A stretch of DNA of 64,000 bases, taken from NCBI GenBank assembly GCA_937139605.1, contig CAKZQG010000011.1:1-64000 (forward strand), in the 5' to 3' direction. A program made the translations under genes and the position numbers. Positions 10,868 through 62,776 of this stretch are shown piece after piece; the first letter of the stretch is position 1; the number at the start of each line of letters is the position of its first letter. Origin of the DNA: an uncultured bacterium (GTDB lineage Bacteria > DRYD01). The notes beneath the pieces were generated by a model, which was given only the letters and a program-made list of their open reading frames with translations, did no database searches and was not told the DNA's origin.

Positions 10868-12098
10868 CTACTTTAAAGAACTTTGAATATAATTTTTATA
10901 TTTTTCTTCTAATTTAGTATCATTAATTAAATCTAAGATATAATCAGCAAATTCTTTAGTGGTAGCTCCATTAGGTCTGCCTGTAATAACTAATTTTCTT
11001 TCATACTGGCCAGCGATTTCCAAAGCCATATTAATTTTTTCAGCTTTTTCTTTATATCCAATATGTTCTAATAGCATAGCAGAAGCTTTAATAACGCTAG
11101 AAGGATCAGCATAGATATGGCGGCCTTCCTCAACCATTCTAGGAGCACTTCCATGAATAGCTTCAAACATAGCATATTTAGTACCAATGTTAGCACTTCC
11201 AGCAGTTCCTACTCCTCCTTGAATCTCAGCAGCTTCGTCTGTAAGAATATCCCCAAACAGATTTGGCATAACAAATACCTGAAACTCATTTCTCCTTTTC
11301 TCATCTATTAACTTAGCAGTCATAATATCAATAAACCAATCATCAGCAATAATCCCAGGATAATCTTTAGCTACTTGATAAAAAACTTTTAAAAATATTC
11401 CATCTGTAGTCTTAATAACATTAGCTTTATTAACAGCAGTAACTCTATTAAATCCATTTTTTTTAGCATACTCAAAAGCTAACTTAACTATCCTGTAAGT
11501 CCCAAAATAACTAATTAATCTAAAATCTATCCCAAATTCTTCTTTTATTTCAACTCCATAAGGTCCAAGTGCATAAAGATCTTCAGTATTTTCCCTAAAA
11601 AAAGTCCAATTAATATTTAATTTAGGGACTTTAACAGGTCTAACATTAGCAAATAGATCTAATACTTTTCTAATAGCAACATTAGCGCTCTCTATATTAG
11701 GCATATTATCTCCCGCTTTAGGGGTAGTAGTAGGCCCTTTAAGTAAGACATGGCATTTTAATATTTGCTCTAAAACATCATCAGGAATAGGCTTTAAAAA
11801 TTGAATCCTTCTTTCTATTGTTAATCCATCTATATAATTAAATTTAACTTTACCATTTTTTACTTCTTGATCTAAAAGATATTCTAATATTCTTTGAGCT
11901 TCTTTAGTAATAAAAGGGCCAATACCATCTCCACCAATAACACCTATCACAATTGTATCTAATTTAGAATAATCAATAAAATTAGAATCATTTTTAATTT
12001 TACTTATCCTTTCATATTCTCTTTTTAGTAAATTAGCAAAATGTTCTTTAGCTTCAGCAATAGCAGCATCAATATTTTCTAATTCAATAACCTTCATA
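10868..12098 (-). CDS. icd: NADP-dependent isocitrate dehydrogenase (prokaryotic dimeric type)
   Basis: GGDGIGPFIT, LLKGPTTTP, NLFGDILTDEAAEIQGGVGTAGSANIG match E. coli Icd-type motifs. Start set to MKVIELEN with GGAGA RBS (RC of 12104-12108); the track used an upstream TTG. Confidence 0.8.
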
Positions 12099-12110
12099 AT
12101 ATTCTCCTTG

Positions 12111-12235
12111 CTTAACAAAAGTGTATATTCTTATACACTTTTGGCAGACCTATTTGTATCCCGCCAATTTTTTAGCCTTATGGTCTGCAGGCGGTATTAG
12201 GCTAAAAATACCAAAACTCAATTAACAACTTCCTT
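12111..12235 (-). promoter_or_regulatory. Copy A of a conserved ~125-nt leader cassette, oriented toward icd. Extended homology with copy C runs to about 12330.
   Basis: Reverse complement reads AAGGAAGTT...TACCGCCTGCAGACCATA...GGCGGGATACAAATAGGTCTGCCAAAAGTGTATAAGAATATACACTTTTGTTAAG, ending ~12 nt before the icd RBS. It shares an 18-mer and a ~35-mer exactly with the copies at 53588 and 55483. Confidence 0.6.
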
Positions 12236-12412
12236 AGGAGTTTTTTTAAATACTATCTCTTTACACGTTCCTTTGCCACTTACCTTGATGTTAAGTATCA
12301 TTTTGCTAGTAAGATTGTGTATCTTTTAGCTATAGTTAATAATGTTTTTCTATTAATATACATTTTTTGATAGTTTTTTACAACTGTTTCAATTTTCCTT
12401 TAGTATTTATTT

Positions 12413-33358: not shown

Positions 33359-33561
33359 ATTTTTTTATTTATTCCCTATATTTAGGGGCAAGGATAATTT
33401 ATATTCCGCCATCCTTGCTTAGCGGTTTTTTTACTAACTTATTATAAATATTCTTTAAAATAATACTCAACCCTTTATTTAAAAAAATAATCAAAAAACA
33501 TTAATAAAAAAATATTAAATTAAATAAGAGGAAATATAATATAATATCTAAATAATAAAAT

Positions 33562-43664: not shown

Positions 43665-43871
43665 TTATTTGTTTTTTTTTATCATGTCGGATTTCTGTCT
43701 GATTAATGGCGGATTAGTTATCCTACCCTTTTCCTTGACAAAAATTACTGCTTTAATTTGCCTTTCATTTATCCCTATTAATAATTTTCCTCCATTAGTA
43801 TTAGCTGCTATAACCTTAAGATATTCATCTTTCCATTTTTCTTTAAACTCAATGTTTTGATTTTCTTTCAT
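43665..43871 (-). pseudogene. Remnant of an AlbA_2 / Schlafen-like putative DNA-binding-domain gene (N-terminal ~65 aa only)
   Basis: ENQNIEFKEKWKDEYLKVIAANTNGGKLLIGINE matches the start of the AlbA_2 domain (E..n.EFK..w......k.i.AFaNt.GG.l.iGv.d). Full-length proteins are 400+ aa; here the ORF ends after 68 aa. Confidence 0.4.
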
Positions 43872-46900: not shown

Positions 46901-47563
46901 TTTATCAAGTTCAAGTTTAGTTTTTATAAATAAATCTCTATATTTTTCAAAGAATTCTTTTGTAACTACCTCAACATCAAAAGCTTTTTCTAAATCACTT
47001 AATGTAGGCTTAAAATAATCATTTTCAAGCAAAGGTAAGAATCTACTTTGTGCAGTATGACTTTTCTCATTTTTTCCAACAAGGAATGACCATCTTTTTG
47101 CAGGCGTTAATTCCTTTTCGACTTTAATTTTTCCTAAAGGATTTTCTTGAAAAGTATAATCCAATTTAACAAGAGAAAACCGCCAATCTTCATCATTAGG
47201 TGCTACAAAAGCTACAAGCGCGGCATCTTTAATAGTATTTGTTCCAAGTTTTCCACTTAAATATTCAGCAACAAAGTTTCTTTGAGCAGACCGAGCATGA
47301 TATAAAGAAAACTCCCTCCTTAGCTTTACAACCAAAATATCTATCTTCTTACCACCTTCATCTACATATCTTCCAATTCTTTCCCAAGAGCCAATAAACT
47401 CAAGGTATTTTTCAGTTATCCCTTGGATCCCAATCCTTGGCTCAAGTGCTTTAGTTATGTCATATTTTTTTAATAAATTAGCTATAAATTTAACAAAATT
47501 ATCTTTATTAAAAGGTTCTTCAAAAGTTAGCTTTATCAACCCTATTGCTTGCCCTCTGTTCAT
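43973..47563 (-). CDS. Large gamma-class N6-adenine DNA methyltransferase with N-terminal domain and C-terminal specificity (TRD-like) domain (PglX / type IIG-IIL-like)
   Basis: 1196 aa. Motif I CDPAVGSGAFPIG precedes motif IV ISNPPYVS (gamma-class order). ~500 aa N-terminal and ~450 aa C-terminal domains. Locally higher GC than flanks. Confidence 0.8.
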   Translation of the reverse strand: MNRGQAIGLIKLTFEEPFNKDNFVKFIANLLKKYDITKALEPRIGIQGITEKYLEFIGSWERIGRYVDEGGKKIDILVVKLRREFSLYHARSAQRNFVAEYLSGKLGTNTIKDAALVAFVAPNDEDWRFSLVKLDYTFQENPLGKIKVEKELTPAKRWSFLVGKNEKSHTAQSRFLPLLENDYFKPTLSDLEKAFDVEVVTKEFFEKYRDLFIKTKLELDKLVQRDLKVSKEFKIKNISTVDFAKKLLGQITFLYFLQKKGWFGVEKGKPWTTGPKDFIRKLFNKEFVDYKNFYNDILEPLFYEALRIDRSDNEHYYNRFNCKIPFLNGGLFDPPNGFDWVNVDVLLPNELFSNRNKTKEGDVGDGILDVFDRYNFTVNEEEPLEKEVALDPELLGKIYEKLNAIRQDNFDQYVKVLNSGKKGEEAKFNKEYGVYYTPPEIVHYMCQESLINYLETEIKDKVNKKEIEEFVRHVDFILENERIAIKKNEKISIGEQKQTKYEYKISQSIIENAKEIDKILSDIAICDPAVGSGAFPIGMMHQIVKLRQLLAIYLNKEINSYDLKRHCIENSLYGVDIDAGAVEICKLRFWLSMIVDEDDFHNIKPLPNLDYKVVCGDSLLGFPENWNSPIGKEIQELMDKYFSETNPLKKLELKQKIDEKIKWRLEKSQENFGYKINFDFKLFFPKVFREKGGFDIVISNPPYVSTKGVNEELKISLKKYYGFADDLYNHFFFKGFQILKNNGILTYITSKTYWTIQTKKNLRDLLLENTILQIFDTANPFESAMVDTSVIIVKKSQPEPGHQITFLDGKNNITQPEKYTIQQNDYTNVPNKVIFIPTDFNKKIYQKLAKKVNELLIKWWDKISTSKNIEKYKKELEIYRKSLKPGDITLLGLITEGGQGLATANNGKYIGVLEGTKWADKVRNERPEKLLLVEQFCKKENIKSKADAQAYLNNLKEKEIRQLFDELKEKYGRDVFGQGWIYRIVSYEEIVDVDYLTDDEKLNGIRGDKTFVPYDKGDKDGNRWYAPTPYYIDWSRENVKFLKENSGKKGEGMPVVRNPQFYFREGFCWTDVSYDVRCRIKEKSIHDVLSMSLFPNTSMVSAKFIVSILNSGFISTYLNAFVNTTVHFQINDARQLPIIIPTLEQLRVFESLCDRAIAIQKQKFNGVLTNQEAQKKLDDIQKELDELVLELYGLKE

Positions 47564-47594
47564 TTTAACTCACTTCCTTAAATATATTATTTTC

Positions 47595-48185
47595 TTAATA
47601 TTTATCACACTCTAAATAAAGAGATAAAATAACTTCTCTTTTCTCTGATGCCATATTTGATATTATATCTGAATTTATTATATCTGAGTTTATAGGAGAA
47701 TTTTCTGAATAATAGTTTTTCAAAAAAGCAGGAGAGATTTCCCTTTGTAAAACTTTAATAACACTTAATGGTTTTAGAATATCTTTTCCTAAGTTATTTA
47801 ATGATTTGAGAACATTTTTAACTGTTTTTTTGGGTAAAGCCATTTCTTCTAAACGGTTTATTACTTTTTCAAGATATTTTTGTTGATCTTCATTTAGCTG
47901 GTTAGCTCCTTTTTGTATTACTTTTAAAATTCTTAAAAGCTCATTATAACTACTTTTTCCTCCTTGTTTTCCAGATTCAACTATTTCATAAGTAGTTGAA
48001 TTATAAAAAGCAGTTTTATTTTTATCAAGTAATTCATAATAACTCTCAATATTTATGGTTGCTTTGGTTTCATTAGGTAAAGATTCAAAAATCTTTACAG
48101 CAGTTAAAAAATCAAGTTCAATTGTTTTTTCTTTATTTGATAAAAAGAATTTTAATAGTTTTCCTTTTCTAAAAAATGTTAGCAA
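47595..48185 (-). CDS. Hypothetical protein (196 aa) between helicase-nuclease and methyltransferase genes
   Basis: 31-nt gap to the MTase start and same strand as both neighbours, probably co-transcribed. No domain recognised. Confidence 0.4.
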   Translation of the reverse strand: MLTFFRKGKLLKFFLSNKEKTIELDFLTAVKIFESLPNETKATINIESYYELLDKNKTAFYNSTTYEIVESGKQGGKSSYNELLRILKVIQKGANQLNEDQQKYLEKVINRLEEMALPKKTVKNVLKSLNNLGKDILKPLSVIKVLQREISPAFLKNYYSENSPINSDIINSDIISNMASEKREVILSLYLECDKY

Positions 48186-48284
48186 TGAATTACAAGGATT
48201 AAAAGAATTAAAATGTTGTTTAAATAATTGATTTATAAGTGATGTTGTAGGGAGTATTTTAGCGGAGCGAGCTTTCTTTGGAAT

Positions 48285-50903
48285 CTACTTTATTTTTTCA
48301 AATAGTTCTGGATTGTTATTACGAATATCCTGGATAATTTTAAAATATTTTAACTCACTTTCTTCTTGCTCTTGTTCTTCTTGGGTAAGAATTTTTTTTG
48401 AAAGAAGTTTATCAAAAAGTTCATAAGAATGAACCGGTTCGCCTTCCATTAAAATAGCAGAATCACCACCAAGCAACGTTAAAAACGCTTCTATTTTAGA
48501 ACGTGCGATATTTGTAAGATCAATTTCATTATCAGCTTGCTTAGCAGGAAAAAAATTGAATATATAAATTTTATCAAATTTAGTATCTATACGATTAACC
48601 CTTCCTATTCTTTGCATCAATTTTGTAGGATTCCAAGGGATATCATAATTTATCACAATATTTGATCTATGAAGATTAACACCTTCTGAAAGGACTTCTG
48701 TTGAAACCAGTATTTTATAATTATCTTTTTTATTTTTGGCTCTTGCATCAAAGTTTTCTATTACTTTATCACGAGCATTCTCTAAGGAACCCCCATGAAA
48801 AAGTAAAGCTATTTCTCCAAAGTCTTTATTTATATTTTTTACTAAATACTCTGCGGTTTCTTTTGATTCTGTAAAAATAATTATTTTTTCACTATTTTTC
48901 AAAACTGAGTGTTCTTTTAAATTTGTCAAAAGAGTTTCAAGTTTTGGATCCCTGTTAATTTCATCCCACATTGATTTTATTTTTTTCAAAATCTCCAGAT
49001 CATTGTTTAAATCTTTTTCAAAATCTTTTCTAAAGTCATTACTTTGATATTTTTCAGCTTTCCCTTGTTCTATTAATTTTTGGATTTCTTCATCATCCCC
49101 TTGCTCTAATAATTCAAAAATTTTATTTATATGCTTCCTACTAACATAAACATTTCCCCGTTGGTATTCTTTAATAAACATTTCATAGGATTTAATAAAT
49201 CTATCGATACTATTTTTAAAAGCATAAAAGCTACTTTCAAGGCGCTTTACAAGTAAAATTTTCATAAATTTTCCCATATTTATCTGTGATTGCTTTTCAA
49301 GAGCTGTTATCTCTTTAGTAAGATATAATAACGGAGTATAACGAGAATATTTAAAATCCTTAGTTATCATTTCAATAGTTTCCATAAAAATCTGGTCTTC
49401 TTTATCATTAAGTTGGTAGTAAAATGGTTTTGGATCTTGAATATCCGGAAACTTTATATTATTTTTTTGTAAGTCCTGGGAAAAATAATTTTGAATTTCA
49501 GTTCTTGTGCGCCTAACCATAATATATTTTAAAATCTTATCCCTGATTTCTTTTGCAATCCTTTTATTCATTTCGATGTATTTATCGTAATCTTTATGTC
49601 TATCTATTTTTTTTAATTTTTCGTCAAGGCTAACAATAAATCTTTCAATATCTGGAATACCTGGTATAGTACTTTTTTTAGGGTTCTGGAATAGCTTAAC
49701 CTGAGCGAGTATATCTCTTGGTGAATTATTATAAGGAGTAGCGGAAACCAATATAACTTTTTTCCCACGACAAATTTCAGAGATATCTTCATAACTAATG
49801 GTTTCTTCATTTCTAAAACGATGAGATTCATCGATAATTATATTCGCATACTCTCTATTTTGAACTTCTTCTTTAGCTTTATCAAGCTCACCAATAGATA
49901 TAAATTTAGCAGGGATATTAAAATCATAAAACACATTAATCCAAGAGCCTGGATTATTTCTATTAAGAAGAGCAGGGGGAGCAATAACAAGTGTCCTACC
50001 TTCAAGCTGCTTAACAAGCATAGCTGTAATATAAGTCTTTCCAAGGCCAACTACATCAGAAATAAAAACCCCACCATGCTCCTGTAATATTTTCTTTGCA
50101 TTTAAAACCGCTTGCTCCTGATATTCCAATACTTTAAAATTTTCCGGCAAGTATTCAAAAAAAACTTTATCATCTAATGATAACTCATCCTTAAAATATT
50201 CATATAAAAATTTTAGATAAATTTCATAAGGAGTAATGTTTTGATTAAGATATGTTCTTTCATTTAAAGTTTGGACATATTTTTCACTAACATCAACCGA
50301 ATTTTCCCATAATTGTTCAAATTTTTCTTTAGCAAATTCATAATCATTTCTATTTTTTAGCTCAACATTAAATTCTAAGTTATCTTCAAGCCCAGATTGA
50401 GTGAAATTACTTGATCCAGTAATAACTCTTCCTATATCTCTATCACCTTCTTTAAAGGTTATAATATATAGTTTTGCGTGAATCTTTTGATATGGATAAA
50501 CTCTTATCTGAAGTTTTCCTTGTTTTATCCATTCTATAAACTTTCTTACTCCTTCTTCAACATCTAATTTATCTTCAGAATCCGACATCTCCTCTTCTAT
50601 TTCTTTTTCAATAATTTCCTTTGCTTGATAATGAGAAAACATTAATTTATATACTTCTCTATTTATACCAATCCCAACAAGGATTCTTATTCTTTCGGCT
50701 GTTTCAAGAGAATTATACAACTTATAAAATCCACTTATGTAAAAATAAGCGACTAAACAATCAAAAAATCTACAATCCTTTATTAGTTGTTTAAATCTAT
50801 CTTTAAGTGTTTTATTTTGCTCATTTATTATAAATGTTAAATCCAAGTGATTCTTAAGGATTTCTTTATTTATATTTTTATCTTCTTTTTTAAAAAAACT
50901 CAT
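48285..50903 (-). CDS. PLD-family nuclease domain fused to SNF2-family (SF2) helicase
   Basis: N-terminal HKD motif IHAKLYIITFKEGDRDIGRVITGSSNFTQSG (H-x-K-x4-D-x6-GSxN). Helicase motif I DVVGLGKT, motif II IIDESHRFRN, motif VI QRIGRVNRI. 872 aa. Confidence 0.8.
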   Translation of the reverse strand: MSFFKKEDKNINKEILKNHLDLTFIINEQNKTLKDRFKQLIKDCRFFDCLVAYFYISGFYKLYNSLETAERIRILVGIGINREVYKLMFSHYQAKEIIEKEIEEEMSDSEDKLDVEEGVRKFIEWIKQGKLQIRVYPYQKIHAKLYIITFKEGDRDIGRVITGSSNFTQSGLEDNLEFNVELKNRNDYEFAKEKFEQLWENSVDVSEKYVQTLNERTYLNQNITPYEIYLKFLYEYFKDELSLDDKVFFEYLPENFKVLEYQEQAVLNAKKILQEHGGVFISDVVGLGKTYITAMLVKQLEGRTLVIAPPALLNRNNPGSWINVFYDFNIPAKFISIGELDKAKEEVQNREYANIIIDESHRFRNEETISYEDISEICRGKKVILVSATPYNNSPRDILAQVKLFQNPKKSTIPGIPDIERFIVSLDEKLKKIDRHKDYDKYIEMNKRIAKEIRDKILKYIMVRRTRTEIQNYFSQDLQKNNIKFPDIQDPKPFYYQLNDKEDQIFMETIEMITKDFKYSRYTPLLYLTKEITALEKQSQINMGKFMKILLVKRLESSFYAFKNSIDRFIKSYEMFIKEYQRGNVYVSRKHINKIFELLEQGDDEEIQKLIEQGKAEKYQSNDFRKDFEKDLNNDLEILKKIKSMWDEINRDPKLETLLTNLKEHSVLKNSEKIIIFTESKETAEYLVKNINKDFGEIALLFHGGSLENARDKVIENFDARAKNKKDNYKILVSTEVLSEGVNLHRSNIVINYDIPWNPTKLMQRIGRVNRIDTKFDKIYIFNFFPAKQADNEIDLTNIARSKIEAFLTLLGGDSAILMEGEPVHSYELFDKLLSKKILTQEEQEQEESELKYFKIIQDIRNNNPELFEKIK

Positions 50904-50992
50904 CTTCTTTAATTTTATAATTAAATTACTATTTTAATTTTTCATTTTCTTTTTATTTTCCCCTTTTTAAATTTAATAAAAAGTTCCATATA

Positions 50993-51045
50993 TTTAACAT
51001 TTTTTTAAAAATAATTTAACATCTTGTTAATATTTTTAATTTAAG
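50993..51045 (+). repeat. 53-bp direct repeat, copy 1 (promoter-like; identical to copy 2 at 51782)
   Basis: TTTAACATttttttaaaaataaTTTAACATcttgttaatatttttaatttaag. Contains candidate -35 TTGTTA and a -10-like TATATA/TATAAA just downstream. Lies 30 nt before the DUF2283 gene. Confidence 0.8.
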
Positions 51046-51074
51046 GGTATATAAAGAAGCGTAGTAAATAATTT

Positions 51075-51368
51075 ATGGGAAACAAAGTTAATGCCAAAAA
51101 AAATAATAAAGAAAATAAAAGCAAAGATAACAAGATAAATTATTTACATTACTTATTAAGAAATACGAGAGTATGGATTGATCCAGAAACTGACATTTTT
51201 TATTTATCATTAAAAAAAGGCCCATCATTTGATTCGCAAGAAATAAATAATAACATTATAATAGAGTTTGACAATGAAAATAAAATAATAGGATTAGAAA
51301 TTAGGAACCTATCTAAAATAGATTTTAATAAAATTATTGAATACACAAAAAAAGTACTTACAGATTAA
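51075..51368 (+). CDS. DUF2283-family small protein (putative antitoxin-like partner)
   Basis: WIDPETDIFYLSLKKGPSFDSQEINNNIIIEFDNENKIIGLEI matches the DUF2283 pattern (YD.E.D.LYi.l......e....i.D.d..G.ivGIEI). Confidence 0.55.
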   Translation: MGNKVNAKKNNKENKSKDNKINYLHYLLRNTRVWIDPETDIFYLSLKKGPSFDSQEINNNIIIEFDNENKIIGLEIRNLSKIDFNKIIEYTKKVLTD

Positions 51369-51406
51369 TATAAACTGCTAAAAACCAAAGCACATAAACC
51401 TAATAA

Positions 51407-51772
51407 ATGAAGGTAGAGAATATTGTTTTATTTTTTACAAGGAATTCATACCTTTTTATTTTTTCAAAGAAATATTTATATTTAAAAGAAATTATATTCA
51501 CAAGACACTGTGAATTACGAATAAAAGAAAGACAATTAGACAAAAATAAAATCATAAAAATATTCTATAAATTTAATTTTTCACTATATGATATAGATAA
51601 CAAAAACTTTATTATAATTTCCAACAAAACAATTGATAATTACCACTTTATAATAATTTTCAATATTAAAAACAATACAGCAAAAATTATAACTATTTAT
51701 CCATGTAAAGATATAAAAAATGAGTTAAAAAAAAAGCTGGGAAAAAGATGGTTTTACTATTTTAATTTTTAA
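51407..51772 (+). CDS. DUF4258-family small protein (putative toxin-like partner)
   Basis: IIFTRHCELRIKERQLDKNKIIKIF ... KIITIYPC matches DUF4258 (fs.HA.eRm.eRgi....v..vl ... viTvy). 38-nt gap after the DUF2283 gene. Confidence 0.55.
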   Translation: MKVENIVLFFTRNSYLFIFSKKYLYLKEIIFTRHCELRIKERQLDKNKIIKIFYKFNFSLYDIDNKNFIIISNKTIDNYHFIIIFNIKNNTAKIITIYPCKDIKNELKKKLGKRWFYYFNF

Positions 51773-51781
51773 ATCCATAAG

Positions 51782-51834
51782 TTTAACATTTTTTTAAAAA
51801 TAATTTAACATCTTGTTAATATTTTTAATTTAAG
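51782..51834 (+). repeat. 53-bp direct repeat, copy 2 (putative native flgF promoter region)
   Basis: Identical 53-mer to 50993-51045, directly upstream of the flgF RBS AAAAGGGGGTG. Confidence 0.8.
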
Positions 51835-51861
51835 AATATAGAAAAGGGGGTGTTAGAGAAT

Positions 51862-52626
51862 ATGTTTTATGAAGGAATGCAAAAAGCAGTAGAAAGCATG
51901 AGCTATTTAGTTAAAATGCAAGAGGTTATAACAAATAACTTAGCAAACGCCTCTACAAGTGGATATAAACAAGATACCACTGTTGTAGCTAATTTCGGAG
52001 ATTTATTAAAAGAAAACGTTAATAAAATCGAACTAACAGGGATGGATAACAGCGCAGAGGTAGTAGTTTCTGAAAACCCATCATTACTTGTAAAACAAAA
52101 AACAAGTTTTGCAAAAGGGAATATTGCTAAAACTGATATAGATTTTGATTTCGCGTTAGACGGTAATGGCTTTTTTGTTGTAGATACCCCATACGGACTA
52201 AGATACACTCGAAACGGTTCATTTACTGTAGATGCTGATGGAATACTTAGAACTAAAGATGGAGGAATAGTCTTAGGAGAAAATGGACCAATTAAAATAA
52301 CAGGAAAAAAATTCGAAGTTAAAGAAGATGGAAGTATATATGTTGATAACAAAAAAATAGATAAATTACAATTAGTTGATTTTAATGATTATGGTGCATT
52401 AGTAAAAGAAGGCGCAAGTTATTTCAAATTATCTCGAGATGTCCAAAGATTACCTGCAAATACTAGAGTTTTACAAGGATATGTAGAAACTTCTAATGTT
52501 AATGCAGTTAAAGAAATGGTTAATATGGTTAATATATTAAGAAGTTTTGAAATGTCTCAAAAAGTTTTACAATCCCAAGATGAAGCACTTAAAAAACATA
52601 TAGAACAAATATCTAGAATGAGATAA
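51862..52626 (+). CDS. flgF: Flagellar basal-body rod protein FlgF (FlgF/FlgG family)
   Basis: N-terminal rod motif ITNNLANASTSGYK and a C-terminal FlgE/F/G domain. Start set at ATG 51862 (MFYEGMQ), 9 nt after the GGGGGTG RBS. Confidence 0.75.
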   Translation: MFYEGMQKAVESMSYLVKMQEVITNNLANASTSGYKQDTTVVANFGDLLKENVNKIELTGMDNSAEVVVSENPSLLVKQKTSFAKGNIAKTDIDFDFALDGNGFFVVDTPYGLRYTRNGSFTVDADGILRTKDGGIVLGENGPIKITGKKFEVKEDGSIYVDNKKIDKLQLVDFNDYGALVKEGASYFKLSRDVQRLPANTRVLQGYVETSNVNAVKEMVNMVNILRSFEMSQKVLQSQDEALKKHIEQISRMR

Positions 52627-53396: not shown

Positions 53397-53587
53397 TAAT
53401 AAGGTAGGATTGAAGTAGTTTCTAAAAACTATTAAAAAACATATATTACCAGAAAGAAAACTATCAACTATAAAAATCATTTTTTAAAGAGATATATAAA
53501 ATAAGCGGACTAACATTGATAAGCTACATCTTCTAAAGGGGGGAGGGGGGAAACAAGGAAAATCTAAGAGGATTGGGATAGGAAAGC

Positions 53588-53706
53588 AAGGAGGTTAGGT
53601 TTTGTGCTTAATGTAAGGCATATAATTAGTACCGCCTGCAGACCATAATATGGCGGAATACAAATAGGTCTGCCAAAAGTGTATATTCTTATACACTTTT
53701 GTTAAG
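53588..53706 (+). promoter_or_regulatory. Copy B of conserved leader cassette (TATAAT at 53621-53626, crossing helices, terminator-like hairpin) immediately 5' of flgJ-like gene
   Basis: AAGGAGGTTAGG...GCATATAATTAGTACCGCCTGCAGACCATAATATGGCGGAATACAAATAGGTCTGCCAAAAGTGTATATTCTTATACACTTTTGTTAAG. The hairpin AAAAGTGTATA-ttct-TATACACTTTT ends 16 nt before the ATG at 53722. Confidence 0.6.
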
Positions 53707-53721
53707 TATGGGAATTAAATT

Positions 53722-54045: not shown

Positions 54046-55245
54046 ATGAATTTTAAAGAGATAAACTTTAATAATAAAAATATACAAATTATTAATTTTG
54101 ATTCTTTTTTCATTAAAGATTTAAAAATTATTGATAATTTAAATAATAATAGTGAATCTCATAATTTAAGTAATTCAAGTAATTTAGATAAAGTTATCAT
54201 AAATTTTAATAAAGAAAATTTAAACGATTCTAATTTAATTGAGTTTTTTAAAAGTATATATAATTTTTGTAAAGATAATAATTTAGACTTTGATTTTAAA
54301 CCTTTTATTGAAGGTTATAATAATTATATCTTTAAACCTAAAATAGCAATTCTTTATATACTTAAAGAATTACTTTCTTTTAATGGAAAAATAAATAATT
54401 ATCTTATTTCAATAAGAAATAAAATAGAAGAAAGAAATTTTTTAATAAATTCTTTACCTTTTGATAATCAAGGAAAATTTATTATATATTTTAAAAAACA
54501 AAAAGAATTAGAAATTTTTTTATCTTTCTTTAAAACTTTTTTATCTAAAAACTACGTAATAAATGAAGAAAATAAAGTTGATATTATTAAAAATAAAATA
54601 ATAGATGAGCTAAGTAAAAAATATTTCCTTACTCATAAATTTTATAAAATAACTGATATAACTAAAAAAGCAGAAATTATAGCCAATATTATTAAAAGTG
54701 GTGGTTTGTTATCAAAGCAACTTAGAAAAGAATTACTAAACAATGCTGACCAAGGGATTGGAAAACTTGACGAATTAACAGGAGGAAGTAATTACGTATT
54801 TTTTAGATTATCAAAATATCCTGATGAAGATGATCTTGTTTTTGATTTAAAAATATTAAAAGAAAACGAACACATAATTCATGATGCTGATAAATGGGGA
54901 GATACTATAAATGATAAAAAAAATAGGGTACCCATAGATAAAATAAATTCTACATATATTGGGGAAGTATTACTTAAAAACATAGCTGATATTAAATATT
55001 TAAAATATATTAACGTTAAAAGTAATGAAGAAAAAAATAAATTAATAGAAGAATTAAAAAAATTAGGAATAAATGAAATAAATGGAAAAGATCTAAATGA
55101 GGTTATTCAAGTTTCTTCAAGAAATGATTCTATAAAAAAGAAATTAATGCTATGGACTTTTAAATTATATAATGTAGTTGAATCATTTGATCCTTTTAGA
55201 ATTACTCCTAAGATTATGAAATTAATTTATGATAGATTATATTAA
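54046..55245 (+). CDS. Hypothetical Asn/Lys-rich protein (399 aa) downstream of flgJ-like gene
   Basis: Open frame with 24-nt gap after the FlgJ-like gene. No domain recognised. Confidence 0.4.
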   Translation: MNFKEINFNNKNIQIINFDSFFIKDLKIIDNLNNNSESHNLSNSSNLDKVIINFNKENLNDSNLIEFFKSIYNFCKDNNLDFDFKPFIEGYNNYIFKPKIAILYILKELLSFNGKINNYLISIRNKIEERNFLINSLPFDNQGKFIIYFKKQKELEIFLSFFKTFLSKNYVINEENKVDIIKNKIIDELSKKYFLTHKFYKITDITKKAEIIANIIKSGGLLSKQLRKELLNNADQGIGKLDELTGGSNYVFFRLSKYPDEDDLVFDLKILKENEHIIHDADKWGDTINDKKNRVPIDKINSTYIGEVLLKNIADIKYLKYINVKSNEEKNKLIEELKKLGINEINGKDLNEVIQVSSRNDSIKKKLMLWTFKLYNVVESFDPFRITPKIMKLIYDRLY

Positions 55246-55482
55246 AATTATTAAAATAAAGTAAAATAAAAAATGTTATACTATGAGGGGGAGGGGTAAA
55301 AAGGTTGCCAAGAACTATTAAAAATGTTTACTCCAACCTAAACCTTAACAGCAAACCAAAGCTAAAATCTCAAAGCAACCAGTGAAAAGAATTTGTAAAG
55401 AGTATTTAAGAGAGTTTTTAAGGAAACGTGGGGTATTTTCAACAGGGGCTTACCTTTGATAAAGAAAATCTAATAGGAAAGT

Positions 55483-55608
55483 AAAGAAGTTAGGAATTGT
55501 ACTTGGCGCAAAGCATATAATTAGTACCGCCTGCAGACCATAGGGCTAACGTGGCGGAATACAAATAGGTCTGCCAAAAGTGTATAAGAATGTACACTTT
55601 TGCTTAAC
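55483..55608 (+). promoter_or_regulatory. Copy C of conserved leader cassette (TATAAT at 55516-55521) immediately 5' of membrane-protein gene. Extended homology with copy A reaches back to about 55380.
   Basis: AAAGAAGTTAGG...GCATATAATTAGTACCGCCTGCAGACCATAGGGCTAACGTGGCGGAATACAAATAGGTCTGCCAAAAGTGTATAAGAATGTACACTTTTGCTTAAC. Ends 15 nt before the ATG at 55624. Confidence 0.6.
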
Positions 55609-55623
55609 AAAGGCTAAGTAAAT

Positions 55624-56256
55624 ATGAATCTAATAGATATAATTTTTATTATTTGTTTTGCTATTGTGTTATCTGCTTTAACAGGACTAAGGACTTTCTT
55701 ACCCATTACTACTTTTAGTATATTAGCTAAATTTAATCTAATTAAACTTAATATTTATAATACTTCTTTTTATAATTTTATAACAGATGACAGAGTATTA
55801 TTAGTTTTTATTATTGCTACTATCTTAGAAGTACTAAGTGATAAAATCCCTGCTATAGATAATTTTTTGGATAATGTTCTAATATTTATAAAACCAATTT
55901 TTTCCTTTATATTGAATTATAATTTATTAAACAGTCTAAATTTAAGTGAGTGGCAATTATTTTTAATTAGTTTTAGTTTATCTTTATTTTTAACAAGTTC
56001 AATAACTACATCAAAAAATGTAATAAGATTAACTTCTACTACCACCACTTTAGGGACTTTTAATATTTTTATAAGTTTTTTAGAAGACTTACTTGTTATC
56101 ATTAAAACAGTATTATCTGCTTTATTTGTTGGTTTTGTTATTATTTTTTCTATAGTATTTATAGTAATATCAGCATTTATAGGATATAAGTTTTTTACAA
56201 AAATGATAGGATTTTTTAAGAATGTAAAGGGAATTAAGGAAAAAGGGATAATATAA
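55624..56256 (+). CDS. Hypothetical integral membrane protein (210 aa, ~6 TM)
   Basis: Hydrophobic helices throughout. No motif recognised. Confidence 0.45.
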   Translation: MNLIDIIFIICFAIVLSALTGLRTFLPITTFSILAKFNLIKLNIYNTSFYNFITDDRVLLVFIIATILEVLSDKIPAIDNFLDNVLIFIKPIFSFILNYNLLNSLNLSEWQLFLISFSLSLFLTSSITTSKNVIRLTSTTTTLGTFNIFISFLEDLLVIIKTVLSALFVGFVIIFSIVFIVISAFIGYKFFTKMIGFFKNVKGIKEKGII

Positions 56257-56262
56257 TAATAT

Positions 56263-56336
56263 CGGGGTGTAGCTCAGCTTGGCAGAGCGCAGGCATGGGG
56301 GGCCTGAGGTCGCCGGTTCAAGTCCGGCCACCTCGA
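56263..56336 (+). tRNA. tRNA-Pro (anticodon GGG)
   Basis: Acceptor CGGGGTG/CACCTCG (one G-U), D-arm GCTC-AGCTTGGCA-GAGC, anticodon stem CAGGC/GCCTG with loop ATGGGGG (U33, GGG, G37), T-arm GCCGG-TTCAAGT-CCGGC, discriminator A. 74 nt. Confidence 0.8.
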
Positions 56337-56353
56337 TAATTTAAAACAATAAA

Positions 56354-58912
56354 ATGATTACTAAAACTTCTAAAATTACTATCTCTAAAATATATAATCT
56401 AAACTCTATTGATAACATAATTGATGTTTTCATTACCGATTATTTCTTATTTATTATATCCAAAGACTTAATTATTCACATAATTAATAGAATAAATAAT
56501 TATGTTTTTTCTTTTAAAGTTATCATTTTTGAAAAGGAAGACAATATACTATTTGAATTTCTTAAAATAATTGATATAAAAAAGCTAAACAAAGACACAT
56601 TCGAAGCATCTTTACTAATTAAAAATATCCTAAAAGGAATATATTTCTTAAATATTTACATAATAACTAAGGATAATGAATTCAAAATATTACTAAATGA
56701 TTCTTATTATTTAGATTCCCGATTTATAAATTTCATAAATCATAATAGCTCACTAAATATTAATGATTCTCTTAACGATATATTAATTTTAGTAGATAAC
56801 GGAATATACAACATAAATTCAAAGTCTTTTTTTTATAAAATAGAAGATATTTTAAAATCTACTTATATAGATATAAAAGATATAATTTATTCATTTTTTA
56901 TTAATCAGAATCTATTTTTTGTTGATAAAAAAGGATTTATATTTATCTTCGAAATTGATAAAGATAAGGAATTAAAATTTATAAATTCATTTTTCTTAGA
57001 TAGTTTTTATCATAAAAATCTTAAAAATATTAAACATTTTTATATCTCAGATAATATTGTTATTTTTGTTGATAATTTAATATATGCTATATCCAATTTA
57101 GATAATATATTAGACAATATAAATGAAATTAAAATAAAAAAATACTCTACTTGGGAGTTATTTAAAGATTTTTATTTATTAACAAAAAATTCTAATGAGA
57201 TTTTTAAGGATATTATATTTTATAATAATAATTATTATTTAGTTTTTGAAAATTATTTAGTGCTTTTAAAAGTGGAAGCTAATAATTTTAAATTTACAAA
57301 GTTAAAAAATTTTGAATGGGAAAAAGAAAATAATTTAATTAAATTAAAAATTATAAATAATCAAGAACTTTGGGTTTTCTATAACCAAAAAATATGGGTT
57401 TTCCAAAATATCCTAGAAAACTCCTTATATAAAGAATTAACTTTATCATTTGAATCTAATCAAGAATTACTATCAATTAAAGATAAATATAACAAAAATG
57501 ATTTAGAAAATACTTTAAAAGAAAAAGAAATCTTAAAGGATAAAGATATATTTGAAATACTAGATTCTAATAATGATAATATTTTGTATAATAATTTTAA
57601 AGTAGTTTCTATAAAAAAATATAATGAATTTTATTTAATTTTTTTAAATGTTCCATTTTTTGGTATATTGGATAACAAAAATGTTTTCTTTTATCCGTTT
57701 TTATTTGATAATTTTACCGAAAATTATAATTATAAAAAAATTAATATTATTTCTATTTTAGATAATTTGTTATTTTTTAAATTAGAAGATAATTATTATT
57801 TTGGAGAATTAGAATTTACTTTTGAACCTTATGTAAAAACTACTGTTAAAAATATTAATAAAATTAATACATTAGTAAACGAAGATAAAATATTAAGTAA
57901 TCCTATTAGATTCTTAAACAATAATGTCTTATTTTCATATCAAAATGAATTATTTATTTTGAATTTAGGTAAAGAATCTAAAGACTATACTCTAAAAAAA
58001 TTTGACCTGAGAAACGTTTCTTTATCAAATATAAATTATTTTAATGATAACTTTGTTTATTCATTTTATATTAAAGACAGTAATATTATTTTAAAAATAT
58101 ATGAACTAGATACTATAAATTTCAAAATAAACATACTTAAAGAATTTATTTTGGAAAATATATCTGATTTCTACAAAAATTTACTGATTAATAGCATTTT
58201 ATTAGATTTAAAAATTATAGATAATAATAAACTTTATCTTTCTATTTTAAAAAATAATCAAATCTATGATTTAGAAATTACTAATAATATTCAATTTAAA
58301 TTATTGAAAAATTTTAAATTGAATGTAGAAAATATTTTAAACGTTTTCAAAATAAATGAAACTATCTTCTTTATTGATTATGATAAAATATATTATTTTA
58401 ATATATCATTAAATTCTTTAAACTTCATTAAATTATTTGAAACACTTAATAAAGTTAATCTGCAAAATAATTTAGATGTTTTTATATTTAATAATCTAAT
58501 TGTCATAGGAAAAATAGAAGATTTCTCAAAATGGGAAAAAATAGTATTCACTTATACCAATGAAAATATATTAGATATATTATTTTATAAAGATAAATTG
58601 CTAATAATATTAGAAAATTCTATAGCTACTGATATACCTAATAAAATTTTAGATATAGAAAAAAATAATTTTATCGAGTTATTAAAACTAGATAATGTCA
58701 TTTACTTAAAGAAATATTTTAAAAATAAGCTTTTAAAAGAAAATAAATTATTTTTATTAGATGATATTGGAGATTTCTGGATAGTTGATATTCAAAATAA
58801 AGATTTAATTAAATCCTATTTGGGTTTTTTAAATGAAGGAGAATTTTATTTAATTGATAATAATATATATATAATAACTAAAGAAGGGTATTCTATAAAA
58901 ATAGAAGTATAA
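56354..58912 (+). CDS. Hypothetical Asn/Ile/Lys/Phe-rich repetitive protein (852 aa)
   Basis: Begins 18 nt after tRNA-Pro. Many short beta-strand-like repeats (YYF, IFF, NNN). No domain recognised. Confidence 0.35.
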   Translation: MITKTSKITISKIYNLNSIDNIIDVFITDYFLFIISKDLIIHIINRINNYVFSFKVIIFEKEDNILFEFLKIIDIKKLNKDTFEASLLIKNILKGIYFLNIYIITKDNEFKILLNDSYYLDSRFINFINHNSSLNINDSLNDILILVDNGIYNINSKSFFYKIEDILKSTYIDIKDIIYSFFINQNLFFVDKKGFIFIFEIDKDKELKFINSFFLDSFYHKNLKNIKHFYISDNIVIFVDNLIYAISNLDNILDNINEIKIKKYSTWELFKDFYLLTKNSNEIFKDIIFYNNNYYLVFENYLVLLKVEANNFKFTKLKNFEWEKENNLIKLKIINNQELWVFYNQKIWVFQNILENSLYKELTLSFESNQELLSIKDKYNKNDLENTLKEKEILKDKDIFEILDSNNDNILYNNFKVVSIKKYNEFYLIFLNVPFFGILDNKNVFFYPFLFDNFTENYNYKKINIISILDNLLFFKLEDNYYFGELEFTFEPYVKTTVKNINKINTLVNEDKILSNPIRFLNNNVLFSYQNELFILNLGKESKDYTLKKFDLRNVSLSNINYFNDNFVYSFYIKDSNIILKIYELDTINFKINILKEFILENISDFYKNLLINSILLDLKIIDNNKLYLSILKNNQIYDLEITNNIQFKLLKNFKLNVENILNVFKINETIFFIDYDKIYYFNISLNSLNFIKLFETLNKVNLQNNLDVFIFNNLIVIGKIEDFSKWEKIVFTYTNENILDILFYKDKLLIILENSIATDIPNKILDIEKNNFIELLKLDNVIYLKKYFKNKLLKENKLFLLDDIGDFWIVDIQNKDLIKSYLGFLNEGEFYLIDNNIYIITKEGYSIKIEV

Positions 58913-62153: not shown

Positions 62154-62776
62154 ATGAAAGAAGAAAAAAATCCCAAAAATAAGAAAAATGGTATGACTAT
62201 AATAGAAGTGGTTATATCTTTTACAATTGCATTAATATTAGTAATGGCATTATACAGTATAGTATATTGGGGATCAACTGGGTTTAGTGATTTAAATCAA
62301 AAACTAATAGATATAGCAAATTCTTCAATATTTATAAAAACAGAGCTAACTCAAAATGCAGGAAAATATTTCTATTTAGAACCAATAGCAGGTACTGAAG
62401 GACAATATATTTTAAAAATGAATGCTAATACACCTATTTATATAAAGTAGAAGTAGAAATCGAATATGAACATAAGAATATAATAAGAAAAAATGCTTTT
62501 GAAATATATTTAACAGCAAATTCCTTTAAAGTAGCACCTATAGGATTTAACACAATAGAGAGTATAAATGTCGGAACCTTTACAGTAGTTAGCCTTACAA
62601 ATACTATGAGCACAACAACTACATCGGGAGTCCCAATAACAGTAGGAACAGTATCAACAGATTTAACTTCAACTATAACAACTACTACTACTTCATATCA
62701 ACCCTGCGGTTATGTCTTACCAGGAGGATATACATGTGCACGTCCTAAAGGACATAAAGGACCTCATGCTTTCTAA
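62154..62776 (+). pseudogene. Prepilin-type (class III signal peptide) pilin/pseudopilin gene interrupted by -1 frame transition (frame 0 at 62154-62450, frame 2 at 62429-62776)
   Basis: N-term KKNGMTIIEVVISFTIALILVMAL (G|MTIIEV prepilin motif). The frame-2 continuation is open with no start codon and encodes a Thr-rich C-terminal part (TTTTSGVPITVGTVSTDLTSTITTTTTSYQPCGYVLPGGYTCARPKGHKGPHAF). Combined length ~205 aa. Confidence 0.45.

What the first reader, a model, noticed from the sequence alone, without database searches (positions are those of the whole stretch)
53588..53706. Thrice-repeated ~125-nt promoter/leader cassette with two crossing helices and a terminator-like hairpin, always immediately 5' of a start codon
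Three copies are present: 12111-12235 (minus orientation), 53588-53706 and 55483-55608. They share exact blocks: TACCGCCTGCAGACCATA, GGCGG(A/G)ATACAAATAGGTCTGCCAAAAGTGTATA and TACACTTTTG(C)TTAA. Copies B and C also share GCATATAATTAG, a perfect -10 hexamer about 90 nt before the ATG. Inside each copy, CCGCC...GGCGG and GCAGACC...GGTCTGC are arranged 5'-a-b-a'-b'-3', so the two helices cannot nest. They form either an H-type pseudoknot or two mutually exclusive hairpins, which is the logic of a riboswitch or attenuator. The segment between b and a' varies in length (7, 13, 16 nt) while the flanks are invariant, consistent with a loop. Each copy ends in an 11-bp palindromic stem (AAAAGTGTATA/TATACACTTTT) with a U-tract, 12-16 nt before the RBS of the downstream gene (icd, FlgJ-like, 210-aa membrane protein). 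All three copies are co-oriented with that gene. Copies A and C share additional blocks further upstream (AAGGAACGTG, TGTAAAGAG.TAGTATTTAA), so the unit may be about 250 nt. I do not recognise it as any Rfam family I know. Alternatives are a MITE/REP-like element carrying an outward promoter, or a small RNA gene with read-through.
Basis: seen in the sequence. Interest (0 to 1): 0.8.

Follow-up and report, generated by a model that had tools for sequence, protein, structure and literature searches.

The report
Mobile pseudoknot leader cassette before genes
A short GC-rich module that probably folds into an RNA pseudoknot has been copied to at least five places in the genome of an uncultured hot-spring bacterium, each time directly in front of a different gene and pointing the same way as that gene. 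It therefore looks like a movable piece of gene-control sequence, and it matches no catalogued RNA family.

Summary
The three copies exist (A 12098-12412 minus, B 53397-53721, C 55300-55618). Walking about 30 kb beyond the window found a short fourth copy (D) and a divergent fifth copy (E).

All five copies lie in sense orientation 16-21 nt upstream of a start codon. The five genes are unrelated: icd, flgJ-like, DUF4126, hinT-like and an aminotransferase.

B and C are derived insertions. Sister species have spacers of 26-40 nt at those sites, and one conspecific strain lacks exactly the 319 nt of C. There the Shine-Dalgarno sequence sits 8 nt from the ATG.

In A-D, 61 core positions are 98-100% identical, while the sequence just upstream is 40-67% identical. 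Variation is confined to the predicted loops.

Copy E keeps the crossing a-b-a'-b' topology. Four of the seven b/b' pairs are changed on both sides and still pair. E lacks the 12-bp hairpin.

Rfam gives no match. The element has no terminal inverted repeats. The hairpin has no U-tract beyond its stem. The TATAAT is present in only two copies.

Best reading: a mobile 5'-leader cassette carrying a new H-type pseudoknot RNA motif. Its function is inferred, not shown.

The parts
12098..12412 (-). Copy A. It fills the whole spacer between a PilT-like ATPase gene (upstream) and icd (ATG at 12097-12095).
   Evidence: Present in all 10 strain contigs examined.
12116..12196 (-). Copy A invariant core. 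S1 arms 12190-12194 and 12161-12165. Loop 1 is the U at 12189. S2 arms 12182-12188 and 12144-12150. Junction loop of 16 nt. Loop 3 is GAUACAAAUA. 12-bp hairpin at 12116-12143.
12355..12383 (-). Promoter-like site TTGTAA-17-TATATT in the 5' block. This block is shared by A and B only.
   Evidence: 9 of 12 matches; AT-rich genome, so weak evidence; A-B 5' block homology 54 bits
53397..53721 (+). Copy B. It fills the spacer between flgG and the flgJ-like gene (ATG at 53722). It is an insertion relative to sister species, whose spacers are 26-40 nt.
53621..53626 (+). TATAAT hexamer of copy B, 3 nt before the start of the invariant core.
   Evidence: Not called as a promoter because it lacks a -35.
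53630..53701 (+). Copy B invariant core. S1 arms 53632-53636 and 53652-53656. Loop 1 is the U at 53637. S2 arms 53638-53644 and 53667-53673. Junction loop of 7 nt. Loop 3 at 53657-53666. Hairpin at 53674-53701, with loop UUCU, which is inverted relative to A, C and D.
55300..55618 (+). Copy C. A 319-nt insertion between the native Shine-Dalgarno sequence (GGGGGAGGGG, 55287-55296) and the ATG of the DUF4126 gene (55624). Strain L001 lacks exactly this stretch.
   Evidence: The closest sister species has SD, then 8 nt, then ATG at this site.
55516..55521 (+). TATAAT hexamer of copy C.
   Evidence: not called as a promoter
55525..55602 (+). Copy C invariant core. S1 arms 55527-55531 and 55553-55557. 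S2 arms 55533-55539 and 55568-55574. Junction loop of 13 nt. Hairpin at 55575-55602 with one U-A to U-G change.

Best explanation
What it is. This is a small family of inserted 5'-leader cassettes, 170-330 nt long, in an uncultured, very AT-rich Calescibacterota bacterium (about 24% G+C). Each cassette landed in the short spacer in front of a gene, in that gene's orientation. Where an allele without the insertion is available for comparison, it landed between the native Shine-Dalgarno sequence and the ATG.

What it carries. Each cassette has a conserved core of 60-95 nt and, after the core, a replacement purine-rich ribosome-binding site.

How it would work. The core is transcribed as part of the downstream gene's mRNA leader, possibly from a promoter inside the cassette. 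It folds into an H-type pseudoknot:
- S1: CCGCC/GGCGG.
- Loop 1: a single U.
- S2: 7-8 bp.
- A bulged junction loop of 7-16 nt.
- Loop 3: a conserved A-rich stretch of 10-12 nt.
In four of the five copies a 12-bp hairpin flanked by A and U runs follows directly. The folded leader then sets the output of the downstream gene after transcription starts. My preferred mechanism is protection of the 5' end combined with control of ribosome access or read-through. A shared protein or small ligand that binds the S1/loop 3 region is possible.

Shown: the repetition, the insertions, orientation and position, the sharp conservation of the core, compensatory change in S2, and the absence from Rfam.

Inferred: transcription, formation of both helices at once, and any effect on expression.
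For: 1. Repeat family. There are five copies in about 100 kb of contiguous genome. Every one is in sense orientation with its last conserved helix 16-21 nt upstream of a start codon.

2. Insertion.
- Strain L001 lacks exactly the 319 nt of C and has GGAGGGG, then 8 nt, then ATG.
- The closest sister species has GGGGGAGG, then 8 nt, then ATG at the C site, and a 27-nt flgG-flgJ spacer at the B site.
- Three further relatives have spacers of 26-40 nt at the B site.

3. Selection on the core.
- 60-61 of 61 core positions are identical in all six pairs of A-D. The roughly 85 nt just upstream are 40-67% identical with many gaps.
- Third codon positions are 64-69% identical to sister species, so there has been time for neutral decay.
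- The differences inside the core fall in the junction loop (7, 13, 13 and 16 nt) and the hairpin loop (AGAA versus UUCU). One stem change keeps a U-G pair on the sense strand.

4. Structure.
- Copy E keeps S1, the 1-nt loop 1 and a loop 3 that matches at 8 of 10 positions.
- In E, S2 changes from GCAGACC/GGUCUGC to GCUAAGGG/CCCUUAGC. Four pairs changed on both sides and all still pair.
- A sequence-free descriptor of the crossing topology finds only these five sites in about 330 kb of AT-rich DNA on both strands.
- The spacing between helix arms varies by 9 nt, which argues for intramolecular pairing rather than a double-stranded DNA operator.

5. Transcription context. E lies between a divergent gene pair, directly before one ATG, so it is almost certainly in a 5' UTR.

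6. Fold energies. The core folds better than shuffles (z -2.4 to -3.1). The hairpin is the most stable perfect hairpin in the window (-12.7 kcal/mol). S1 would add about -8 kcal/mol as a duplex, including initiation.

7. Novelty. No Rfam family matches at gathering score or at E<=10.
Against: - There are no transcript data of any kind.
- Only one divergent copy exists, so S2 covariation rests on a single lineage.
- S1 never varies, so it is neither supported nor refuted.
- Without the pseudoknot term, predicted stability at 75-85 C is marginal, from -5 to -7 down to about -1 kcal/mol.
- Promoter-like hexamers differ between copies, and none passes the scan near the core.
- The hairpin is absent from E, so it is not essential to the module.
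- The five downstream genes share no obvious function.
- The motif was found in one species only: no exact match to a 20-mer of the core in 185,579 reference genomes, none in viral contigs, and none in about 190 kb of sister-species DNA.
- The identity of the A-D cores could partly reflect recent spread from unseen master copies or gene conversion.
Confidence: 0.5

Rival explanations
1. A purely selfish non-autonomous mobile element with asymmetric ends (MITE-like, rolling-circle or IS200/IS605-like). The invariant core with its hairpins is the DNA end that a transposase or recombinase recognises in single-stranded DNA. The host gains nothing. Orientation and position reflect only which insertions are tolerated.
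For: - Presence/absence polymorphism and absence from sister species.
- Variable 5' extent (170-330 nt) with a conserved 3' end.
- One assembly contig breaks inside D's hairpin, as happens at repeats.
- The loop of the main hairpin and the 11-mer after it are flipped between copies (AGAA/TTCT; TTGTTAAGCAA/TTGCTTAACAA). These are DNA-level events.
- Native spacers are short, so any intergenic insertion ends up near a start codon.
Against: - There are no terminal inverted repeats at the defined ends of C. The best match is 3 nt, against a random mean of 5.8.
- There is no clear target duplication.
- The left end has no hairpin like the right-end one.
- No open reading frame overlaps the core anywhere among 5.8 billion proteins, and no transposase is seen in about 100 kb.
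- Copy E has lost the terminal hairpin but keeps S1, loop 1, loop 3 and a compensated S2. This is hard to explain for a dead transposon end.
- 5 of 5 copies are in sense orientation.
- The U-G change is tolerated only in sense-strand RNA.
Confidence: 0.2
2. A ligand-sensing riboswitch or transcription attenuator. The pseudoknot is an aptamer, or a pair of alternative hairpins. The 12-bp hairpin is a conditional terminator that gates read-through into the downstream gene.
For: - Sequence-specific conservation of S1, loop 1 and loop 3, with a freely covarying S2, is the pattern seen in small pseudoknot aptamers.
- The hairpin is flanked by an A run and a U run and abuts S2.
- In A-D there is no room for a promoter between the hairpin and the start codon, so expression must pass through it.
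Against: - The downstream genes are unrelated: icd, flgJ-like, DUF4126, hinT-like and an aminotransferase.
- No U-tract follows the stem, and the hairpin does not pass the terminator scan.
- No segment competes with the terminator arms.
- E has no hairpin at all.
- No Rfam riboswitch matches.
- The 5-codon mini-ORF seen in A-D is not kept in E.
Confidence: 0.12
3. A multi-copy small RNA gene. A 75-85-nt transcript would start just after the TATAAT or TAGCCT hexamer and end at the hairpin, and it would act in trans. Its position next to start codons would be incidental.
For: - The conserved block begins 3-4 nt after a TAnnnT hexamer in A-D and ends at a stable hairpin followed by UUUUGUU.
- It forms a GC-rich island in a 24% G+C genome.
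Against: - An efficient terminator 18-21 nt before the ATG, inserted inside former operon spacers such as flgG-flgJ, would silence needed genes.
- E has neither the hexamer nor the hairpin.
- Strict sense orientation and strict distance to the ATG are not expected for a trans-acting RNA.
Confidence: 0.1
4. Double-stranded DNA operator sites for one or two dimeric regulators. The palindrome AAAAGTGTATA-N4-TATACACTTTT and the interleaved inverted repeats would form a regulon of unrelated genes.
For: - A perfect 12-bp palindrome with a free centre.
- An invariant sequence in A-D.
Against: - The spacing between the arms of a/a' and b/b' varies by 9 nt.
- E changes the sequence of b/b' but keeps its complementarity, and it lacks the palindrome.
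Confidence: 0.03

Closest known systems
Putative mobile promoters (Matus-Garcia, Nijveen and van Passel 2012, PMC3488235)
   Same: Homologous sequence of more than 50 nt at 80% identity or better lies within 150 nt upstream of the start codons of non-homologous genes, and the flanking genes are unrelated. The operational definition is met.
   Different: That class is defined by similarity alone. Here there is also direct insertion evidence, strict sense orientation, a replacement ribosome-binding site, and a structured core supported by compensatory change. A promoter function is not demonstrated.
Correia repeat enclosed elements of Neisseria, and other MITEs that act in mRNA leaders (PMC2649163, PMC10969869, PMC2229807)
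   Same: These are small non-autonomous insertions next to genes. They are co-transcribed, fold into stable RNA structures, and can bring promoters and alter expression of the neighbouring gene.
   Different: CREE and classical MITEs have terminal inverted repeats and a TA or other target duplication, and they occur in both orientations. This element has no inverted termini, no clear duplication and one orientation only. Its structure is an interleaved (pseudoknot-type) pair of helices rather than one long hairpin.
[quoted passage not shown]
   Same: A dispersed intergenic repeat whose conserved part looks like a terminator hairpin.
   Different: Here the hairpin has no U-tract after the stem. 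It always sits just before a start codon rather than after genes. It is dispensable in copy E.
Small H-type pseudoknot leader RNAs such as the SAM-II, preQ1-II, fluoride and guanidine-III riboswitches, and protein-binding leader pseudoknots (named from my own knowledge, not tested beyond the Rfam scan)
   Same: A 50-65-nt module in a 5' leader close to the start codon. A short loop 1 and an A-rich loop 3. Sequence-specific conservation around one stem, with a covarying second stem.
   Different: No sequence or covariance-model match to any of them. A long and variable junction loop (7-16 nt). Downstream genes without a common pathway. Dispersed by insertion. Confined, as far as sampled, to one species.
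IS200/IS605-derived palindrome-associated elements and IS91/Helitron-type one-ended elements (from my own knowledge)
   Same: No inverted termini, no target duplication, a subterminal hairpin near the 3' end, orientation bias, and a variable 5' extent.
   Different: There is no matching left-end hairpin and no conserved target tetranucleotide or pentanucleotide beyond a loose TAA. No TnpA, TnpB or Rep gene was seen. Orientation follows the gene: minus, plus, plus, minus, minus along 75 kb.

Membership tests
MITE (classical) | Length below about 500 bp, non-coding, multi-copy, intergenic | tested here: met
   170-330 nt. Five copies in about 100 kb. No open reading frame.
MITE (classical) | Terminal inverted repeats of about 4-30 bp | tested here: not met
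   At the ends of C, which are defined by the allele that lacks it, the best inverted match is 3 nt. The random mean is 5.8.
MITE (classical) | Target-site duplication flanking young copies | tested here: inconclusive
   At C a TAA is possible on both sides, but the allele without the insertion differs by one base at the junction. Nothing consistent is seen at A, B or D.
MITE (classical) | A related autonomous IS element in the genome | not testable with these tools
   Only about 100 kb of the genome could be reached. No transposase is seen there. The six-frame translation of the core matches no protein.
Putative mobile promoter (PMC3488235) | More than 50 nt at 80% identity or better within 150 nt upstream of start codons, with non-homologous upstream and downstream genes | tested here: met
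Putative mobile promoter (PMC3488235) | Actual promoter activity | not testable with these tools
   TATAAT is present in B and C only. The consensus scan calls nothing at the core.
Any Rfam 15 family (riboswitches, ribozymes, small RNAs, transposon-associated guide RNAs such as HEARO and the IS605-orfB motifs) | Covariance-model score at or above the gathering threshold | tested here: not met
   Only two tRNAs in the window. Nothing overlaps the core even at E<=10.
Intrinsic (rho-independent) terminator | A G+C-rich stem-loop followed directly by a U-tract | tested here: not met
   The 12-bp stem has 3 G-C pairs. The Us lie inside the stem, and the tail is UUAAG or CUUAAC. No site is called. 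The hairpin is absent from copy E.
H-type RNA pseudoknot | Two helices in the order 5'-S1-S2-S1'-S2'-3', with loop lengths that can span the grooves | tested here: met
   S1 5-6 bp, loop 1 of 1 nt, S2 7-8 bp, loop 3 of 10-12 nt in all five copies. The 7-16-nt junction loop is atypical.
H-type RNA pseudoknot | Evolutionary support (compensatory changes) for both helices | tested here: inconclusive
   S2 has 4 pairs changed on both sides in copy E. S1 is invariant in all copies and so uninformative. Only one divergent sequence exists.
H-type RNA pseudoknot | Both helices form at the same time in the RNA | not testable with these tools
   The folding tools do not allow pseudoknots. The helix energies are only additive estimates.
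IS200/IS605-type palindrome-associated element | Similar subterminal hairpins at both ends and insertion 3' of a fixed 4-5-nt target | tested here: not met
   The left ends have no counterpart of the right hairpin. The left flanks share only TAA.

The most novel reading that the evidence does not exclude
A self-propagating riboregulator. A compact pseudoknot sensor or operator travels as a cassette and inserts, in sense orientation, into the spacer between the Shine-Dalgarno sequence and the start codon. It replaces the native translation start region. In this way it would wire unrelated genes (icd, an aminotransferase, hinT-ribF, flgJ, a DUF4126 membrane protein) into one post-transcriptional regulon in a deep-branching thermophile. 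This would be a mobile cis-regulatory RNA with targeted integration at translation start sites.
Probability: 0.15. Interest if true: 0.85.

Novelty: new variant of a known kind. Interest (0 to 1): 0.6.

Why it matters
How families of cis-regulatory RNAs spread within a genome is poorly understood. Dispersed bacterial repeats are usually treated as junk, or as simple hairpins.

Here one species of an uncultured thermophilic phylum shows a structured, pseudoknot-capable leader module caught in the act of spreading. There is an allele without the insertion, sister species without it, near-identical copies, and one old copy with compensated stem changes. All copies sit at translation start regions.

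If the RNA is functional, it is a new motif class and an example of regulatory rewiring by a mobile leader. If it is only a transposon end, it defines an unusual orientation-specific element without inverted termini. Either outcome can be tested with existing hot-spring metatranscriptomes and a 60-nt RNA.

Tried and rejected
Searches that led nowhere:
- The metagenome scan was wasted on a mis-specified pattern (7 N then CC, where it should have been 7 N then C).
- A genome-contig scan with a 20-mer of the core gave 0 hits. The species itself is not in that collection; the best FlgG match there is 97% identical.
- Two viral-contig scans gave 0 hits. Searches of phages and plasmids in distant mode gave no match.
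- A six-frame translation of the core searched against 5.8 billion proteins, to catch spurious or transposase reading frames, gave no hit.
- A concatenated three-protein query, meant to allow walking along the genome, failed because the candidate list was swamped.
- Two look-ups failed because of start-codon choice.

What did work for walking: protein ids returned by the listing of cluster members are accepted by the look-up of encoding contigs. That route led to copies D and E.

Ideas rejected:
- HDV-like, twister, pistol and other ribozyme topologies: the order of the helices does not fit and Rfam is silent.
- An integron attC site: GTTAAGC follows the hairpin, but no complementary R'' lies upstream.
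- A Xer/dif-like 11-6-11 site as an attachment site: there is no second hybrid site at the left end.
- Sigma-54 and sigma-28 promoters: the required GG/GC and TAAA/GCCGATAA elements are absent.
- A leader-peptide attenuator (NTG-GCG-GRA-TAC-AAA-TAG in A-D): it is not kept in E, and the start codon is not statistically surprising.
- A 5' half that is a decayed older copy of the same element: no significant self-similarity.
- The 5' part of C as a captured gene fragment: no match.
- The 399-aa protein between B and C as a transposase: no Pfam, NCBIfam or PDB match.

Full report
**Observation**

The 18-mer TACCGCCTGCAGACCATA and the 24-mer ATACAAATAGGTCTGCCAAAAGTG each occur exactly three times without mismatch. 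Shuffles expect 0.00-0.01. The composite a-b-a'-b' pattern matches 3 times against 0 expected.

The downstream genes are as stated: Iso_dh; a 99-aa protein with weak FlgJ N-terminal (rod-binding) matches; and DUF4126.

Corrections:
- The hairpin stem is 12 bp and its U run lies inside the stem.
- No terminator-like site and no promoter-like site is called at the core.
- The TATAAT exists in B and C only.
- The repeated unit is larger than reported and modular (see "Conservation pattern").

**Organism**

The window has about 24% G+C, with G+C-rich tRNAs. Relatives retrieved through FlgG are hot-spring metagenome-assembled genomes, among them Candidatus Calescibacterium. That lineage is flagellated and thermophilic (PMC4791363).

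The species itself is not in the reference-genome collection; the best FlgG match is 97%. Identical proteins occur in many NCBI, ENA, JGI and Logan assemblies.

**The copies are insertions**

- Copy C. Strain L001 (GCA_026417355.1) is otherwise 99.0-99.7% identical but lacks exactly 319 nt (55300-55618). It reads GGAGGGGTAATTAAATATG, that is, Shine-Dalgarno, then 8 nt, then ATG.
- Ancestral state at the C site. The closest sister species (FlgJ 95% identical) has GGGGGAGG, then 8 nt, then ATG at the same site, so the allele without C is ancestral.
- Copy B. The flgG-flgJ spacer is 325 nt here and 26-40 nt in the sister lineages examined (L012, L017, L069/L072, L075).
- Copy A is present in all ten strain contigs seen.
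- SNP density in L001 rises immediately to the right of the C site, with 8 SNPs in 250 nt after 1 kb without any. The polymorphism therefore travels with a recombination tract.
- C was inserted between the native ribosome-binding site and the start codon. It carries its own purine-rich stretch (AAAGGC) 10 nt before the ATG.

**More copies**

A profile of the whole element found nothing else in the window, in about 10 kb to the left of it, or in sister-species loci. Walking about 30 kb to the right along contig ERZ27245459:k141_84327 gave two more copies.

- Copy D (L086 15060-15230, minus strand, about 23 kb beyond the window) lies between rsmI and a hinT-like gene. Its spacer is only 171 nt long, and D has the same core and hairpin, with the ATG 19 nt after the hairpin. 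One assembly contig (L087) ends inside D's hairpin.
- Copy E was found with a covariance model built from A-D (26.4 bits). It is L086 7443-7516, minus strand, in a 198-nt divergent spacer. Its last helix ends 16 nt before the ATG of an aminotransferase gene.

Along the chromosome the order and strands are A(-), B(+), C(+), E(-), D(-). Orientation follows the downstream gene in 5 of 5 copies.

**Conservation pattern**

- In A-D, 60-61 of 61 core positions are identical in every pair. The aligned roughly 85 nt just upstream are 40-67% identical with many gaps.
- Upstream homology beyond the background of AT-rich intergenic DNA exists only for the 5' block of A and B (54 bits, against a background of 37 bits or less) and for the sequence next to the core within the pairs B/C and A/D.
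- Third codon positions against sister species are 64-69% identical. The non-core divergence is therefore what neutral decay since the insertions would give, while the core has not changed.
- Inside the core, the differences sit in the junction loop (7, 13, 13 and 16 nt), in the hairpin loop (AGAA in A, C and D; UUCU, its reverse complement, in B), and in one stem position of C that turns U-A into U-G on the sense strand.
- Gene conversion across the core would have homogenised these loops. Purifying selection on a structure explains the pattern better.

**Structure**

All five copies have the order S1(5') - U - S2(5') - junction loop - S1(3') - A-rich loop - S2(3').

- In A-D, S1 is CCGCC/GGCGG, S2 is GCAGACC/GGUCUGC and loop 3 is (A/G)AUACAAAUA.
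- In E, S1 is kept and can be extended by an A-U pair. Loop 1 is still a single U. Loop 3 is UAUAUAAAUACC.
- In E, S2 is GCUAAGGG/CCCUUAGC. Pairs 3, 4, 6 and 7 changed on both sides and all remain Watson-Crick.
- A descriptor that fixes only the topology and a minimum G+C content finds these five sites and nothing else in about 330 kb of AT-rich Calescibacterota DNA on both strands.
- S1 never varies and is therefore untested.
- A 1-nt loop 1 across a 7-bp stem, and a 10-12-nt A-rich loop 3 along a 5-bp stem, are sterically right for an H-type pseudoknot. This rests on established pseudoknot geometry and is my inference. The long junction loop is unusual and would have to bulge out.
- Nested folding gives S2 plus the hairpin, with z-scores from -2.4 to -3.1. 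At 75 C these nested folds retain only -5 to -7 kcal/mol, so the extra S1 helix would matter.
- The spacing between helix arms varies by 9 nt, and E keeps complementarity rather than sequence. This argues against double-stranded DNA operators.
- The U-G pair, the strict sense orientation and E's position in a 5' UTR favour RNA over single-stranded DNA.

**What it is not**

- No Rfam family matches.
- There are no terminal inverted repeats, and no protein-coding potential or overlap with any known reading frame.
- It does not occur in phage, plasmid or viral collections.
- The hairpin is the most stable perfect hairpin in the window. It fails the terminator criteria and is missing from E.

**Mechanism**

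The best-supported reading is a mobile leader cassette. It is a piece of DNA that inserts in sense orientation directly upstream of start codons. It brings a structured RNA module and a replacement ribosome-binding site. It is kept because the folded leader matters for the expression of the gene behind it.

The kind of effect is inferred only. It could be 5'-end protection, control of ribosome access or read-through, or binding of a common factor at S1/loop 3. A selfish element without host function is the main rival. A classical metabolite riboswitch is unlikely because the gene set is heterogeneous. A trans-acting small RNA fits poorly with the position inside former operon spacers.

**Comparison with known systems**

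- The element meets the operational definition of a putative mobile promoter (PMC3488235).
- It resembles Correia-type elements that act in mRNA leaders (PMC2649163; PMC10969869).
- It fails the structural definition of a MITE, because it lacks inverted termini.
- Its core is a pseudoknot-type motif that is not in Rfam.

I file it as a new variant of a known kind. The RNA motif is a candidate new family. It rests on five copies from one species, only one of them divergent.

Noticed in passing
window 50972-51072 and 51761-51861: A second duplicated upstream region: 101 nt, 81% identical, TTTAACATTTTTTTAAAAATAATTTAACATCTTGTTAATATTTTTAATTTAAG... It ends just before the start codons of a DUF2283 gene and of flgF. 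It looks like another reused promoter or leader in the same genome.
   Followed up: partly
window 12120-12139 / 53678-53697 / 55579-55598, and the 11-mers that follow the hairpins: The hairpin loop is AGAA in A, C and D but TTCT, its reverse complement, in B. The 11-mer after the hairpin is TTGTTAAGCAA in A and TTGCTTAACAA, its exact reverse complement, in C. These are small inversions of the kind caused by strand switching at inverted repeats.
   Followed up: partly
window 55619-56540 compared with L001: SNP density between the window strain and strain L001 jumps from 0 per kb left of copy C to about 3% in the 250 nt to its right, with a second cluster at 56196-56536. A recombination tract appears to begin at the insertion site.
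   Followed up: partly
window 12161-12166, 53650-53667, 55551-55568; L086 copy D: A 5-codon mini-ORF, NTG-GCG-GRA-TAC-AAA-TAG, starts with TTG, ATG, GTG and GTG in A-D. A, C and D have an A(A/G)GG 5-8 nt upstream of it. It is not conserved in copy E, so it is probably not meaningful.
   Followed up: yes
window 33386-33425, 28002-28041, 62706-62745, 43695-43734: Other G+C-rich islands lie in long AT-rich spacers. One example is GGGCAAGGAT...ATCCTTGC upstream of a Ser/Thr kinase gene. They may be further unannotated structured RNAs. None reaches an Rfam gathering score.
   Followed up: no
window about 43973-50903: A defence-like island with an Eco57I-type methyltransferase/restriction protein (1196 aa) and a PLD-helicase (SNF2/ResIII). 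The helicase gene is split (196 + 872 aa) in the window strain and in L002, but intact (1102 aa) in other strains.
   Followed up: no
window about 50000-52000: Cumulative GC skew reaches its minimum here, and gene orientation switches from mostly minus to mostly plus. This may be the replication origin region. No dnaA gene was looked for.
   Followed up: no
L075 10298-10497; L012 11056-11184; L076 10120-10476: Sister species have their own long, unrelated spacers at neighbouring sites, for example 200 nt between flgJ and the next gene. L012 has a G+C-rich nested hairpin (CCGCTCTCT...AGAGAGC) just before that gene. Insertions into operon spacers may be common in this clade.
   Followed up: partly
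window 54046-55245 and 56354-58912: Two large proteins next to copies B and C, of 399 and 852 aa, have no Pfam, NCBIfam or PDB match. The 399-aa gene is present in some sister lineages and absent from others.
   Followed up: partly
L087 (Logan SRR5580903_3093), end of contig at 15104: An independent assembly breaks exactly inside the hairpin of copy D. This is what a multi-copy repeat does to an assembly graph, and it hints at more copies elsewhere in the genome.
   Followed up: no
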